Shown: positions 57,001 to 63,000 of the stretch, piece after piece
How positions within the stretch are numbered: the stretch's first letter is position 1
Layout of the letters: the number at the start of each line of letters is the position of its first letter
NCBI RefSeq assembly: GCF_001677475.2
Contig: NZ_CP012498.1
DNA length: 64,000 bases
Origin: Escherichia coli
GTDB lineage: Bacteria > Pseudomonadota > Gammaproteobacteria > Enterobacterales > Enterobacteriaceae
Strand: one strand, 5' to 3'
Program-made: the position numbers

Positions 57001-60000
57001 GTAACCCCTTCTTTTCAGCGTGTATATAGCCTTCATCTTGCTGCCGGGTTTTGACCATGTTTTGCCATCAACACCCGGCGTTCTCTTCCCTCTGTTATCT
57101 GTCACTCGTTTAACTGCCATTGCTCTGGCGCTGAACGAGTGGGTGAGTAGCCATTGCAAGGCTTTTACCTTGCCCGCTTTCTCCTCCTGTATTGCCTTCA
57201 CGATACGCGCCTGCAGCCTTCTGACCTCGCGACGGCACTTGGCCCAGTTGATATTGTGCCAGTGAGTCACGATGTCGGTGGGTGCACCCGCGTTTATGTT
57301 TTTCGCAGTCATCTGCTTACCCTCCTTCAAAGGTATTCAGGTTATCTCGTGTTGAAAGACCATGCGGAAGTCTGCCCGCTTTCGCGTGGAATGATGTTGC
57401 TGAAACAGCTCAACTCCTGTCCATCCCATTACAGGATGGCATTCGCTTTCTCCGCACTCCTGTACCCGCATCACTGACAGCTTTCCTCGCGGTTAGCCTG
57501 CCCTGAGGGCAGTGATACGGGCTTACCGTGTTCCGCACAGTTTGCAGGGATGGGTTAGGTTCTGCCTATCCACCGGTAGCTTTGATGTCCGTGCCTCCCC
57601 AGTCAAAAGAGGAAGGTCCAGCTACGTTCCCATTTTGGGTCGGGCCTGTCAGTGCCTTTGGCCCGTTCAGGGTTGACGATGTTTATCAGCAGTTCACATG
57701 TGTTAACCCTGCCATCCAGCCTTGCGCCCCATCCGCCCTGACACTGGCAGACATGCTTCCTCCTCGCGGATTCCACATGGTGTGAAAACCGGGCTACGTT
57801 GTCCCGAAGGCTTCATACCGAACAGTTACCCGCTCTGCATGCTTCGGTAGGCTACAGGCGACGGAACGCCTGGTTTTACTACTTCCTTTACATGAAGTTA
57901 AAACAACAAACTGTGCGACTTTCACGTCGCACACTGACTGACCCACCGTACCTCGTCGGTTTCCGTGACCGTTCCGGGCGCACCATTGCCGGTGACGTTA
58001 ATGATGACTGGCTGCAACCTGCCAGCAATGAGATGTACCGCGTACTCAAAAAAGACGCACTGATGGTCAGCTTCTACGGCTGGCACCGTATTGACCGCTT
58101 TATGGCGGCCTGGAAACGCGCCGGATTCAGCGTGGTAGGGCACCTTGTGTTCACCAAAAACTACACATCCAAATCTGCGTATGTCGCGTACCGCCACGAA
58201 TGCGCTTACATCCTGGCAAAGGGCAGTCCGGCCCGGCCCCGTAACCCGCTGCCGGATGTGCTGGGCTGGAAATATTCGGGCAACCGCCATCACCCGACGG
58301 AAAAGCCCGTTACCAGCCTGCAACCGCTGATTGAGAGCTTCACACACCCGAACGCGATTGTGCTGGATCCGTTTGCAGGCAGCGGTTCAACCTGCGTGGC
58401 TGCCCTTCAGTCCGGACGCCGGTATATCGGTATCGAGCTGCTTGAACAGTATCACCGTGCCGGACAGCAACGACTGGCCGCCGTGCAACGGGCCATGCAG
58501 CAGGGGGCCGTGAATGATAACTGGTTTGAACCGGAGGCTGCATGACGAATTACAGCGGATTCGAAGATATGCGTGAACAGGTGGCGGAACTGGCCAATAC
58601 CATGTGCGACCTGCGTACAACCATGAATGAGATGGAGCAGCGGTAAAGCGATGCGGACACCCTCCCGGAACGTCTGGTGCGCCAGACACTCTTTCGTGCC
58701 AGTTACCTGTTTATGAAGGCATATAACGAAATTCTGGAACTGGATGCGTGCTTTAAAGATTGAGAAGGAGACGAGAATGTACGGAACATGCGAAACGCTA
58801 TGCCGGGCGCTGGCAGCAAAGTATCCGGGAGACACGCCGCTGATGCTGGTTATCTGGTCCCCGGAAGAGATTCAGGCCCTCGCTGACGGAATGGATATTT
58901 CCCTGTCCGATCATGAAATCAGGACCGTCCTGGCGCGCCTGGAGGACATCCCGGAAGACCAGCGGACTGAGTCCTGTATTTCTTCCGGCGTGGCGATGGA
59001 GATCATCAATAACGTGAGAGAAAACCGCCAGGTGACCGTCCCGGCTGAACTGCTGGCGTCCCTGATTCAGACCGCCGAACAGGCACTGTGGAAACGTGAA
59101 TGGGCCGCCCGTGATTACGGCCTTGCCGTCCCGGAATGCGTTACCCGCCGTCAGGCGGTGGTTAATCAGGCCCGCATCCTGCTGAAAAACAACACACACG
59201 AAAACGACTGATGTTATCGCCGCCTTCGGGCGGCGATTCAGGGAGACCATTAATCATGAACAAAACGCTGAATGCACTGGTTTGTCGCCACGCCCGTAAC
59301 CTGCTGCTGGCGCAGGGCTGGCCGGAAGAGACGGATATTGAACAACTGAATCCGCACTATCCGGGCTGGATCAGCATTTATGTGCGACTGGATGTATCCC
59401 GGCTGGCGACGTTACTTATCAGCCGCCATGATGGCGTGCTGCCGCCGGTCCTGGCGTCTGCCATGCAAAAACTGACCGGAACCGTGGCGGAACTTGTACT
59501 GTCCGGCAGCCAGTGGCAGGCGCTGCCGGTACTTCCGGCAGACGGAACGCAGGTGTCTTTCCCGTATGCCGGCGAATGGCTGGCAGAAGACGAAATTAGG
59601 GCAGTTCTTGATGCGGTACGCAATGCAGTACGAAGCATCTGTTACCAGGTGGCAGACGATGCGCGGCGTATCCGGGCGGCGCTGACCACCACCGGTCAGA
59701 CGTTGCTGACCCGCCAGACGCGCCGCTTTCGTCTGGTTGTGAAGGAAAGCGATTACCCCTGCTGGCTTGATGAAGATGACGAAAATCTGCCCGTGGTGCT
59801 CGATGCCATTCTGAACCGTGGCGCCCGTTTTTCCTCTGTGGAAATGTACCTGGTCTGTGAGTGTGTGGAGCATATCCTGGCCAGTGGTCTGGTCTGTGAT
59901 GTGCTGCGTATACCGGATGAACCGTCCCGTCGCTGGTTTGACCGGGATATTCTGCGGGAGGTTGTTCTGGAGGCACGGGATGAAATCCGCAGCATGGCGG

Positions 60001-63000
60001 ATGCCCTGGCAAAAATCCGGAAATGATGACGCTGGCGGGGAAAAATCTCCGCCTTTTCCTGCCGGTCCCCGGAAAGAGCAAAAGGATGTCGCCGCAGGCT
60101 CCGCTTTACCCGGCCATGCAGGGCATGGCCTTGTGGGATTTCAGTTATGTGGCCTCAGCGTCGTGTGCGGGCTGTGCCGTGCCTCCATCTTAGCCGGGCT
60201 GGCGGGGATGCAAGGGTAAAATGCACGCGGCGGTCACCCGGTCCCTCCTTCCCGTCTGCCGTGATTTTCCGGTCGTTCACCCGCTCAGATTTCGCGGTCT
60301 CACCCTCCAACTCCCGCCAGCCGTGTGCGTCAGGCTGCGGCTTCCCTTGCGCCCCTGCATCCCCGCCTTATCGCCCGGCTTTTATGGAGGCACGGCACCG
60401 CCCGGTGTCGCGGAATATGTGAACAATGGAGGAATACATCATGCAGTATGCGAAACCTGTCACCCTGAATGTTGAAGAGTGCGACCGCCTTTCTTTTCTG
60501 CCTTACCTGTTTGGTAACGATTTTCTGTATGCCGAGGCGTATGTGTACGCTCTGGCACAAAAAATGATGCCGGAATATCAGGGAGGCTTCTGGCATTTCA
60601 TCCGCCTGCCGGACGGTGGCGGTTACATGATGCCGGATGGCGACCGTTTTCATCTGGTCAACGGTGAAAACTGGTTTGACCGCACTGTGAGTGCTGATGC
60701 CGCAGGTATCATTCTGACGTCTCTTGTGATTAACCGCCAGTTGTGGCTGTACCACGACAGCGGGGATGCGGGGCTGACACACCTGTACCGGATGCGTGAT
60801 GCGCAGTTGTGGAGCCACATCGAATTTCACCCCGAATGCAACGCGATTTACGCAGCACTGGACTGATTACCGGACGGGGCGGCAATGCCGCCCCTGTAAA
60901 GGAGGCGAAGAAAAATGAACATCAGTACGGAAACCCGCGAAATTCTGCGTAAATACAAAGCCGTGATTAATGCGCGGCGTCGTGATATGGGGCAGAAACC
61001 GCTCACCACTGCGCAGATTGTTGATGAAATCTGCGATTTTGTGGCGAATCAGCAGGCTGTTTTCCTGGGCGGTCACTACATCTTACAGGCCAGCAGAAAC
61101 AGGTGATACAGGGCAGGCGGTGGAGGCCGCCTGTCAGCCCGCGCGAAAACCCCTGGCAGGCTGGCGCCTGCCGGAAGGGAAGCGGGCCACGCTGGCGCGT
61201 CGCCCGTTACCCTTCCCGTTTGTGATGTGTCTGACTCAGGAGTGTTTCTTTCTTATGTTATGGAACTGTTCCTGATGTTGTTGTTCCTTTATCTGCTGCT
61301 CTGATTCTGACTACTGCAGTGTTGTCCTGTCTGCCTGTCGGGTAGCAGCGGCACATTGCTGCGCCGCCGCCCCCTAAGAACGGAGCGTGCGAGTTTCCCC
61401 GCACTCCGCTCAAGCCTTTATAAGTGCTTTCGGTGAGCACCGGCTTCCCTGCTGTGTAACTGTCGGTGGCCGTTCGGATGTAACAGCTCGAGATTGGTCA
61501 GTTCGTCACTACTGCCCATAACTTTCCTGATCCGGTGATGTATATTCCATCCGGTCTGGTTGGTTATGGGTTGTCCGCACTGCGGGCAGTGTTTCCCCTG
61601 CCTCTTCCAGAGTTGAACTACTGTCTTCATCTTCTTTGATTTGCCTTTCCAGATTAGATCCAGACGACGTTCAAAGTAGATTTCCATTCCGGGGGTGTAT
61701 GGTGTTGCTTCGCCTTTGATTTTTATATGGCGCTTTATCGGTGTTTCCATTGCCCGGAAGAGAGTCAGAATTTTCCCTTCCGGGGTTATGGCTTTAAAGA
61801 TCCAGCGCCTGTCTTCAAAGGAGAAGTATCGTCCGGCGATCCACCGCAATCCTTTCCGGGGATGCCGTCTTACACACCATCGCCATATAGCTCGCCAGAT
61901 TTGGGTGTCGACATAATTAAATGTTTCTTTCGCCACGACGTGTCGGTGATAGGTAGCCCATCCCCGGATCACCGGGTTTAGCTGGCCTATCAGTTTCCAT
62001 GCCGGGAGCGTCGGATTGCGTTTAATTATTTCTCTGACTTTACAGAGGAAGTTCTTCAGGTTTTTCTTCGACGGTTTAATCAGCATTTTACCGTTGTACT
62101 TCCTGACGTTCTGCCCTAAAAAGTCGAAGCCTTTATCTATATGTGTGATCGCTGTTTTTTCTTCCGACAGTTCCAGTCCTCGTTCGCGCATGAAAGCTGC
62201 AATCAGTGGTCTGACCTCATTTTCCAGCAATTCACGGGAGCTGCCTGAACAGATGAAATCATCAGCATATCTCACATAATTCACCTGGTGCTTTGCACTG
62301 TGATAACCACTTTTCCTGAACGTTTGCATCAGTTCCTTCTCCAGTCCGTCCAGTGCCATGTTGGCGAGAACAGGGGATATGATGCTTCCCTGCGGTGTCC
62401 CGCTGTTCGTATGGTTAAACACGCCTCTTTCCATGTAACCTGCTTTCAACCATTTTTTAAGCAGTCTCCTGTCCATCGGAATATGGGAAAGCAGCCAGTC
62501 ATGGCTGATGTTATCGAAACACCCTTTAATATCGCCCTCCAGTATCCATTTGGGCGATACTTTCTGGCTCATCCGCAGAAAAATGGACTCAATGGCGTCA
62601 TGCGTGCTGCGCATTGGTCTGAAACCATAGCTGTTATGGTCAGCAGTGGTCTCGGATACGGGTTCCAGAGCCAGCAGCCACAGTGCCTGCATGGCCCGGT
62701 CCCTCATTGTGGGTATGCCCAGCGGTCGCGTTTTGCCGTTTGATTTTGGGATATGTATTCGCCGTAGTGGCTGTGGTCTGTAACCACACAGATTCAGGCT
62801 GCATATCCCTTCCCATTTCTCCTTCGGTGTGTTCCATATTTTTCCGTCAATACCAGGTGTCCTTTTACCGGTATTTTCAGTTACACGCCTGACAGCCACG
62901 GCTTTGCCGGAGAATGAGCGGGTGAGGATGCGCTGTAGTTCTCTGACCTGCCGCCATTGTTGCTGTCGGGTTGCCTTTGCAATCCGTAACTGTAGCTTTC

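What the first reader, a model, noticed from the sequence alone, without database searches (positions are those of the whole stretch)
58744..61106. Leading-region-like anti-defence cluster with KlcA/ArdB antirestriction gene
A KlcA/ArdB-family gene (60441-60866), the disrupted orphan methyltransferase and two uncharacterised ORFs (58744-59211, 59256-60026) lie in one orientation. This resembles the establishment/anti-defence islands of conjugative plasmid leading regions, where unannotated neighbours are often anti-restriction or anti-CRISPR functions. No ssb/psiB/psiA was seen in the window.
Basis: partly seen in the sequence, partly recalled or inferred. Interest (0 to 1): 0.4.

Follow-up and report, generated by a model that had tools for sequence, protein, structure and literature searches.

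The report
F-plasmid leading-region anti-restriction gene block
This is the well-known block of "first-in" genes that F-type conjugative plasmids switch on as they enter a new cell (a KlcA anti-restriction gene, a DNA methylase and conserved unknown genes); this copy is an ordinary, partly decayed example.

Summary
Window 58.5-61.1 kb is the orthologue of the F plasmid block MTase-YubE-DUF1380(YcgB/YubF)-YchA(YubG)-KlcA(YubI)-YcjA-orf63. In F this block lies about 8.5-12 kb from oriT, upstream of ssb/psiB.

The block is present in 3772 of 5426 complete E. coli genomes, at 7016 plasmid places against 86 chromosomal ones. Samuel et al. (Nature 2024) already rank these gene families among the 14 largest families enriched in leading regions.

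The 414-bp gap before klcA holds a 237-nt hairpin on the transferred strand. It has 42 pairs, 97.9% paired, 13 with compensatory changes. It matches the published "class 2" single-stranded-DNA promoter of klcA/ardA (NAR 2025).

ssb, psiB, psiA and oriT are absent only because the window ends. Its last 185 bp already match F's Frpo elements.

This copy is eroded:
- The methylase is split by an antisense group II intron that itself carries an IS21.
- yubE has a stop codon.
- ycjA is missing.
- A second intron follows orf63.

YchA gives a confident model with no solved structural neighbour. Relatives as low as 23-28% identical still sit directly upstream of klcA or ardA. Its function remains unknown.

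The parts
52682..53042 (-). Structured non-coding region upstream of the methylase start. It is probably the 'class 3' ssDNA promoter of the M.EcoGIX-like methylase operon.
   Evidence: It is 94% identical to F 53.8-54.2 kb, directly upstream of F's methylase. The - strand folds into a long hairpin, about 52.76-52.98 kb, at -100 kcal/mol and z=-3.6. The class assignment rests on PMC12672017, not on a test done here.
53043..53113 (+). Orphan adenine methyltransferase, exon-like part 1 (23 codons plus 2 nt)
53114..57932 (-). Group II intron 1, antisense to the methylase. It is itself interrupted by an IS21-family element (istA 53677-55176, istB 55173-55928).
   Evidence: Rfam places D5/D6 at 53114-53190 and D1 at 57725-57873. 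The 5' end reads GTGCGAC and the 3' end reads CTACCCGAC. The RT ORF 55819-57330 runs into the IS.
57933..58545 (+). Orphan adenine methyltransferase, part 2 (DPPY motif onwards)
   Evidence: PF01555 at 128 bits. Joining it to part 1 restores a 227-aa ORF that is 96% identical to the pSTEC1585_2 methylase.
58542..58763 (+). yubE-like small gene (73 codons in F), here with an in-frame TAA at 58644-58646
   Evidence: Translation; PHROG 4830; the homologue in L006 is labelled PF27407 YubE.
58777..59211 (+). DUF1380 protein (YcgB/YubF), 144 aa
   Evidence: PF07128 at 177.6 bits; PHROG 9024; 512 homologues.
59256..60026 (+). YchA (YubG) family protein, 256 aa, function unknown
   Evidence: PHROG 8919; homologues; AlphaFold model with pLDDT 91.6; no PDB neighbour.
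60168..60404 (-). Long hairpin on the transferred (template) strand, matching the 'class 2' ssDNA promoter of klcA. On the non-template arm the -35 TTGCAT runs 60213->60208 and the -10 TAAGAT runs 60192->60187, with an internal loop. The predicted transcription start is near 60392.
   Evidence: Inverted repeats. Fold energy -96 kcal/mol, z=-5.0. 42 pairs, 97.9% paired, 13 compensatory, 0/500 shuffles. The promoter boxes and the start site are my reading of the alignment, not measured.
60441..60866 (+). klcA/ardB-family antirestriction gene, 141 aa
   Evidence: PF03230 at 92.5 bits; 2KMG KlcA at E=2e-18; 97.9% identical to F's copy.
60915..61106 (+). Conserved 63-aa ORF, the last gene of the klcA operon. 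It is basic (pI 9.9).
   Evidence: 95% identical to F's 63-aa ORF. It is annotated in the reference plasmids. pI.
61337..63678 (-). Group II intron 2, complete, with a 555-aa RT/maturase at 61418-63085. It lies in the same orientation as intron 1.
   Evidence: Rfam D5/D6 at 61337-61413 and D1 at 63485-63634; boundaries.
63816..64000 (-). Start of a Frpo-type (class 1) ssDNA promoter element, cut off by the window end
   Evidence: About 90% identical to both F Frpo regions, L003 9175-9322 upstream of ssb and L003 14563-14748. Frpo positions are from PMC9849209.

Best explanation
Window 52.7-64.0 kb is the distal part of an IncF-type plasmid leading region, on a large Escherichia enterohaemolysin plasmid. 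The finding covers two adjacent early ('zygotic') operons.

Operon 1 is methylase-yubE-DUF1380-ychA. Operon 2 is klcA-(ycjA)-orf63.

Proposed mechanism:
- During conjugation the - strand of the window enters the recipient as single-stranded DNA.
- The long hairpins upstream of each operon (about 52.76-52.98 kb and 60168-60404) fold. Each rebuilds a double-stranded -35/-10 promoter with a partly open -10.
- Host RNA polymerase then transcribes the operons before the complementary strand is made.
- KlcA blocks cleavage by the recipient's Type I restriction enzymes.
- When intact, the methylase pre-methylates the incoming DNA.

What is shown here: gene identities, synteny with F, conservation and covariation of the klcA hairpin, and plasmid specificity.

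What is taken from the literature: early single-strand-dependent transcription of these two operons in F and pESBL, and KlcA/ArdB activity against Type I systems.

What is inferred: DUF1380 and YchA are co-expressed establishment or anti-defence factors.

In this particular copy operon 1 is probably crippled. There is a 4.8-kb antisense insertion between the promoter and the rest of the operon, and yubE carries a stop codon. Operon 2 looks intact apart from the missing ycjA.
For: - Gene order and sequence match F (88.6% over 3 kb) and its flanks. In F and other plasmids the block is followed by ssb, psiB, psiA, hok and then the oriT-flanking genes: the SLT gene, and traM.
- More than 5000 plasmid records hold the block, mostly conjugative MOBF/IncF. 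3772 of 5426 E. coli genomes have it, at 7016 plasmid against 86 chromosomal places.
- KlcA membership is supported.
- The hairpin has z=-5.0, 97.9% of cells paired and 13 compensatory pairs. Slid controls pair at 38% or less.
- The hairpin arms, a TTGC -35-like box and a TAnnnT -10-like box are kept between klcA-type and ardA-type loci, as PMC12672017 reports for class 2 promoters.
- The same paper reports early induction of the KlcA and M.EcoGIX-homologue operons in F.
- The window end matches Frpo.
- Samuel et al. list all these families as enriched in leading regions, in this order from oriT.
Against: - oriT is not in the window, so the 'leading' position rests on synteny.
- No tra gene was found in the window among the F proteins tested. 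The plasmid may therefore not be self-transmissible, and the block could be a relic.
- The methylase is interrupted, yubE has a nonsense codon and ycjA is missing.
- The promoter boxes and the start site are read from sequence, not measured for this copy.
- The -35/-10 spacer on the non-template arm is only 15 nt.
- The excess of G-T pairs on the - strand (13 against 3) is biased, because the structure was predicted on that strand.
- No evidence of any kind assigns a function to DUF1380 or YchA.
Confidence: 0.9

Rival explanations
1. Vestigial block. The plasmid is a non-self-transmissible virulence plasmid of the pO157 kind. The leading-region genes are decaying remnants that no longer act during transfer.
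For: - Three mobile-element insertions lie within 11 kb: two introns and an IS21.
- The methylase is split, yubE has a stop codon and ycjA is absent.
- No F-type traM or traJ is in the 64-kb window.
- About 18% of the matching plasmids are typed as mobilizable or non-mobilizable.
Against: - klcA, its hairpin promoter, DUF1380, ychA and orf63 are all intact.
- klcA and orf63 are 95-98% identical to F at protein level.
- The tra region could simply lie outside the window.
- A klcA-orf63 arrangement without ycjA also exists in an otherwise intact relative (L006).
Confidence: 0.25
2. DUF1380 and YchA are not anti-defence proteins. They are establishment or host-reprogramming factors, or regulators of the neighbouring genes, as is now reported for the leading-region protein YfjB.
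For: - Neither protein matches any anti-defence, defence or solved-structure family.
- Samuel et al. found no anti-CRISPR or anti-restriction similarity for these families.
- A 2026 preprint describes YfjB as a host-reprogramming leading protein (abstract).
Against: - YchA relatives that are 23-38% identical to the window protein stay directly upstream of klcA or ardA in 6 of 7 loci with flanks. This points to a link with restriction evasion.
- The data do not discriminate between the two readings.
Confidence: 0.45
3. The block belongs to a chromosomal integrative island or prophage of the CP4 type, which also carries KlcA-like genes, rather than to a plasmid.
For: One distant YchA relative lies next to a CbeA/CbtA toxin-antitoxin pair (L011). 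86 chromosomal places exist in E. coli.
Against: The window carries plasmid partition genes (the ParM/StbA homologue directly upstream) and matches only plasmids over its whole length. 7016 of 7102 places are on plasmids.
Confidence: 0.02

Closest known systems
F plasmid leading region, block yubE-yubK (methylase, YubE, YubF/YcgB, YubG/YchA, YubI/KlcA, YubJ/YcjA, 63-aa ORF)
   Same: Same genes in the same order and orientation, 88.6% nucleotide identity over 3 kb. The non-coding hairpin regions upstream of the methylase and of klcA are the same. A Frpo element follows.
   Different: In the window ycjA is missing, the methylase is interrupted by an intron plus IS21, yubE has a stop codon, and a second group II intron sits between orf63 and Frpo.
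Leading-region anti-defence islands (Samuel et al., Nature 2024, PMC11541004)
   Same: An anti-restriction gene, an orphan methylase and uncharacterised families lie in one orientation with an ssDNA promoter. The gene families are ranks 7-14 in that paper's table.
   Different: Nothing conceptual. That paper searched for Frpo-like promoters. The klcA hairpin belongs to a different class, described later.
Class 2 ssDNA promoter of klcA/ardA in pESBL and F (NAR 2025, PMC12672017)
   Same: A large hairpin immediately 5' of klcA. -35 and -10 boxes are rebuilt in the stem. The sequence is shared between klcA and ardA loci.
   Different: I could not see the paper's figures, so the exact boxes and the +1 position were not compared. 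Activity of this copy is untested.
KlcA (pBP136, PDB 2KMG) / ArdB (PDB 2WJ9) / KlcA-HS of Klebsiella plasmids
   Same: Same Pfam family and length, with a full-length alignment. These proteins inhibit Type I restriction in vivo (PMC2836571, PMC5411435, abstracts).
   Different: Only distant sequence similarity to pBP136 KlcA (E=2e-18). No functional test here.

Membership tests
KlcA/ArdB antirestriction (PF03230) | Pfam domain above the curated cut-off | tested here: met
   92.5 bits against 25
KlcA/ArdB antirestriction (PF03230) | Full-length similarity to a structurally solved member, and a size of about 140 aa | tested here: met
   2KMG KlcA at E=2e-18, residues 5-141 of 141; 2WJ9 ArdB at 2.3e-8
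KlcA/ArdB antirestriction (PF03230) | Relieves Type I restriction in vivo | not testable with these tools
   Needs an EcoKI restriction assay
Plasmid leading-region anti-defence island | Lies within the first tens of ORFs on the leading side of oriT | tested here: inconclusive
   oriT is not in the window. By synteny with F the block ends about 8.5 kb before the oriT gap between the SLT gene and traM. The window end matches Frpo.
Plasmid leading-region anti-defence island | Genes co-oriented so that the transferred strand is the template | tested here: met
   All genes are on the + strand, the same direction as ssb/psiB and traM in F. T-strand polarity comes from established knowledge of F transfer.
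Plasmid leading-region anti-defence island | Contains known anti-defence genes and is specific to plasmids | tested here: met
   KlcA and the methylase; 7016 plasmid against 86 chromosomal places
Class 2 ssDNA promoter (klcA/ardA type) | Large conserved hairpin directly 5' of klcA or ardA, with sequence shared between the two kinds of locus | tested here: met
   42 pairs, 97.9% paired, 13 compensatory, 0/500 shuffles; alignment of klcA and ardA loci
Class 2 ssDNA promoter (klcA/ardA type) | -35/-10 boxes rebuilt in the stem and oriented toward the gene | tested here: met
   TTGCAT and TAAGAT on the non-template arm. The TTGC and TAnnnT patterns are kept in all 8 distinct sequences. The spacer is 15 nt, which is short.
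Class 2 ssDNA promoter (klcA/ardA type) | Transcription start on ssDNA in transconjugants | not testable with these tools
   Needs 5' RACE or RNA-seq after mating
M.EcoGIX-like leading-region methyltransferase | N6/N4 methylase domain with the DPPY motif | tested here: met
   PF01555 at 128 bits; DPPY is in the joined ORF
M.EcoGIX-like leading-region methyltransferase | Uninterrupted, expressible gene | tested here: not met
   Split at codon 24 by a 4.8-kb antisense intron plus IS21 that cannot splice from the methylase mRNA
DUF1380 (PF07128) | Pfam domain above the cut-off | tested here: met
   177.6 bits against 26, covering the whole profile
Frpo (class 1 ssDNA promoter) | Sequence similarity to F Frpo1/Frpo2 | tested here: inconclusive
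   185 bp at the window end are about 90% identical to both F regions, but the element is cut off by the window end

The most novel reading that the evidence does not exclude
YchA (YubG), and perhaps the DUF1380 protein, is a so far unrecognised anti-restriction or other anti-defence effector, or a partner of KlcA/ArdA. The fold has no solved relative. The gene has stayed glued to the 5' side of the klcA/ardA ssDNA promoter down to about 23-28% identity.
Probability: 0.3. Interest if true: 0.45.

Novelty: already known. Interest (0 to 1): 0.15.

Why it matters
The block is part of the machinery that lets IncF resistance and virulence plasmids survive entry into restriction-proficient hosts, so it matters for plasmid spread. 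This copy teaches nothing new about that.

The only open point is the function of YchA and DUF1380. They are two of the most abundant uncharacterised leading-region families. They are equally available for study in the F plasmid itself.

Tried and rejected
- Profile searches of DUF1380, YchA, orf63 and the yubE fragment gave only DUF or PHROG 'unknown function' families. Libraries searched were Pfam, NCBIfam, PHROGs and PADLOC.
- Sequence searches of the PDB gave nothing below E=0.7, using single sequences and the YchA profile.
- The AFDB library was unavailable.
- The DUF1380 model was poor (pLDDT 57.8), so no fold search was run on it.
- A full HMMER scan of 1.84 billion representatives found only 181 YchA relatives, many of them fragments. 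The family is narrow.
- A weak Rfam 'Erse' sRNA hit at 52807-53002 scored 22 bits against a gathering score of 138. I treat it as chance or as a side-effect of the hairpin.
- A strand test by G-T pairs favours the transferred strand (13 against 3). It is biased by how the structure was derived, so I give it little weight.
- My first intron 1 boundary (57930) was off by 2 nt. It was corrected to 57932 by restoring the methylase reading frame.
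Full report
**What is in the sequence**

- 60441-60866 encodes a 141-aa KlcA/ArdB protein. Pfam PF03230 scores 92.5 bits against a cut-off of 25. It aligns over its full length to the solved KlcA structure 2KMG at E=2e-18 and to ArdB 2WJ9.
- 58744-59211 is DUF1380 (PF07128, 177.6 bits). The Pfam match and all annotated homologues start at the ATG at 58777, behind an AAGGAG site. The gene is therefore 58777-59211, 144 aa.
- 59256-60026 encodes a 256-aa protein with no Pfam or NCBIfam family. It matches PHROG 8919 at 5.5e-130, and sources name it YchA.

Between the methylase and DUF1380 lies a small yubE-like ORF, 58542-58763. It is 73 codons in F, but here it has an in-frame TAA at codon 35. 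After klcA comes a conserved basic 63-aa ORF, 60915-61106.

**The methylase**

The ORF at 57799-58545 carries an N6_N4_Mtase domain, but its true start is 4.9 kb upstream. Joining 53043-53113 to 57933-58545 restores an intact 227-aa protein. It is 96% identical to an uninterrupted plasmid methylase and 88% identical to F's.

The intervening 53114-57932 is a group II intron on the opposite strand:
- Rfam places D1 at 57725-57873 and D5/D6 at 53114-53190.
- The ends read GTGCGAC...CTACCCGAC.
- Its reverse-transcriptase ORF is truncated by an IS21-family element, istA/istB at 53677-55928.

Because the intron is antisense, it cannot be spliced out of the methylase mRNA. 'Disrupted orphan methyltransferase' is therefore correct.

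**Identity of the block**

The classical F plasmid has the same order: DNA methylase, 73-aa ORF, DUF1380, 258-aa ORF, antirestriction protein, second DUF1380, 63-aa ORF. After these come ssb, DUF905 (yfjA), ParB-like (yfjB), psiB, hok, DUF932, the SLT gene, then traM, traJ and traY.
- Window 57934-60912 aligns to F at 88.6% identity, and the flanks at 94-96%.
- Other E. coli plasmids show the same context, with psiA also annotated.
- More than 5000 PLSDB plasmids match. Most are conjugative Escherichia, Klebsiella, Salmonella and Shigella plasmids.
- Among complete E. coli genomes, 3772 of 5426 carry the block, at 7016 places on plasmids and 86 on chromosomes.
- The rest of the window matches large Escherichia enterohaemolysin (ehx) plasmids.

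**Why ssb, psiB and psiA are missing**

tblastn with F's SSB, YfjA, YfjB, PsiB, PsiA region, SLT, TraM and TraJ finds nothing in the window. However, the last 185 bases (63816-64000) are about 90% identical to both regions of F that hold Frpo2 (upstream of ssb) and Frpo1 (Frpo positions from PMC9849209). The window simply stops at the next promoter element.

**The non-coding region before klcA**

The 414-bp gap (60027-60440) is at least 91% identical in every listed match among more than 5000 plasmids, about as conserved as the block as a whole.
- It contains 32-nt and 31-nt inverted repeats.
- As single-stranded DNA the - strand folds at -96 kcal/mol, z=-5.0.
- I aligned it with F and with the gaps in front of klcA or ardA in divergent loci found through distant YchA relatives.
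- The consensus hairpin, 60168-60404, has 42 pairs. 97.9% of cells are paired and 13 pairs show compensatory changes. None of 500 shuffles reaches these values, and slid controls pair at 38% or less.

The arm that would be the non-template strand for transcription toward klcA carries an invariant TTGC (window TTGCAT, 60213->60208). Fifteen nucleotides further on is a TAnnnT hexamer (TAAGAT, TATAGT, TACAGT or TAAAGT; window 60192->60187). The middle positions of that hexamer face an internal loop. This predicts a start near 60392 and a 5' UTR of about 48 nt carrying the GGAGGAA ribosome-binding site. These assignments are my inference.

They fit the report that F and pESBL have a 'class 2' ssDNA promoter hairpin shared by klcA and ardA, and a different 'class 3' hairpin before the M.EcoGIX-type methylase. 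In that report both operons are induced early in transconjugants and the start sites were mapped by 5' RACE (PMC12672017).

The region upstream of the methylase start (52682-53042) is 94% identical to F and also folds into a long hairpin.

**Mechanism**

By established knowledge of F transfer, the strand that enters the recipient is the template strand of the leading genes. In the window this is the - strand.

The best explanation is the published one. The hairpins form on the incoming single strand and recruit RNA polymerase. The two operons are then expressed transiently, until the complementary strand is synthesised (PMC9849209, PMC11541004, PMC12672017). KlcA/ArdB proteins inhibit Type I restriction in vivo (PMC2836571 and others). 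The methylase, when intact, would protect the incoming DNA by methylating it.

In this copy the 4.8-kb antisense insertion separates the class 3 promoter from yubE, DUF1380 and ychA. Their early expression is therefore doubtful. The klcA operon looks intact.

**The two unknown proteins**

- Nothing in Pfam, NCBIfam, PADLOC or PDB sequences gives them a function.
- The family is narrow: 181 representatives among 1.84 billion.
- Relatives that are 23-38% identical to the window protein lie directly upstream of klcA (L006, L007, L009, L010) or of ardA (L004, L005), separated by a gap of about 350-420 bp (about 165 bp as ardA is called in L004). The single exception lies next to a CbeA/CbtA pair.
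- The DUF1380 model was too poor to use.
- These proteins are only mildly acidic, with pI 4.8 and 5.4. They are not obvious DNA mimics.

**Comparison with what is known**

Supplementary Table 1 of Samuel et al. lists these families among the 14 largest enriched in leading regions, with median distances in ORFs from oriT:

| Family | ORFs from oriT |
|---|---|
| Methylase | 21 |
| A small 'cytoplasmic' protein | 20 |
| DUF1380/YcgB | 19 |
| YchA | 18 |
| KlcA-HS | 16 |
| YcjA/YcgC | 15 |

The unknown families are labelled 'Uncharacterized'. This is the same order as in the window. The finding is therefore a correct recognition of a described system.

**Verdict**

The feature is already known. 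Interest is low, at 0.15. The residual novelty lies in the unknown function of YchA and DUF1380, which is not specific to this window.

Noticed in passing
window 53114-57932 and 61337-63678 (- strand): Two different group II introns sit in the leading region. Both have their sense strand on the - strand, which is the transferred single strand, so they are antisense to the leading genes. blastn found no similarity between them. This orientation would fit intron invasion of the incoming ssDNA, but that is only an inference. An E. coli plasmid (NZ_CP027343) matches the 5' end of intron 1 and continues into the methylase exon 2 without a break. This suggests the same insertion site, but the left junction was not compared.
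   Followed up: partly
window ~53200-55930: An IS21-family element (istA 53677-55176, istB 55173-55928) is nested inside intron 1 and truncates its reverse-transcriptase ORF. The exact IS ends were not determined.
   Followed up: partly
window 60866-60915: The second DUF1380 gene (ycjA/yubJ, about 420 bp) found between klcA and orf63 in F and most relatives is absent. The junction sequence differs from a simple deletion of the F sequence. A distant relative (L006) also has klcA followed directly by the 63-aa ORF, so this may be an alternative allele.
   Followed up: partly
L004, L005, L006, L007, L009, L010 (YchA-like genes): YchA relatives that are 23-38% identical to the window protein are always the gene directly 5' of klcA or ardA in these loci, whether or not a methylase or DUF1380 gene is present. 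I did not find this tight linkage stated in the papers read.
   Followed up: partly
window 63816-64000: The window ends inside a Frpo-type element that is about 90% identical to both Frpo regions of F. The window therefore carries sequences matching all three published classes of ssDNA promoter: class 3 at about 52.7-53.0 kb, class 2 at 60.17-60.40 kb and class 1 at the window end.
   Followed up: partly
window 52807-53002 (- strand): A weak Rfam hit to the 'Erse' small RNA (22 bits, gathering score 138, E=0.008) lies over the hairpin upstream of the methylase. It is probably meaningless.
   Followed up: no
window 61106-61230: A cluster of short GC-rich hairpins lies right after orf63 (fold z=-3.8). 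They are conserved in F and could be the operon terminator. Intron 2 is inserted about 100 bp beyond them.
   Followed up: no
window 1-25000: The enterohaemolysin operon (ehxA, ehxB, ehxD) and aromatic-acid catabolism genes are 98-99% identical to large plasmids of E. coli and unnamed Escherichia species from cattle and food. This places the window on a large virulence plasmid.
   Followed up: no
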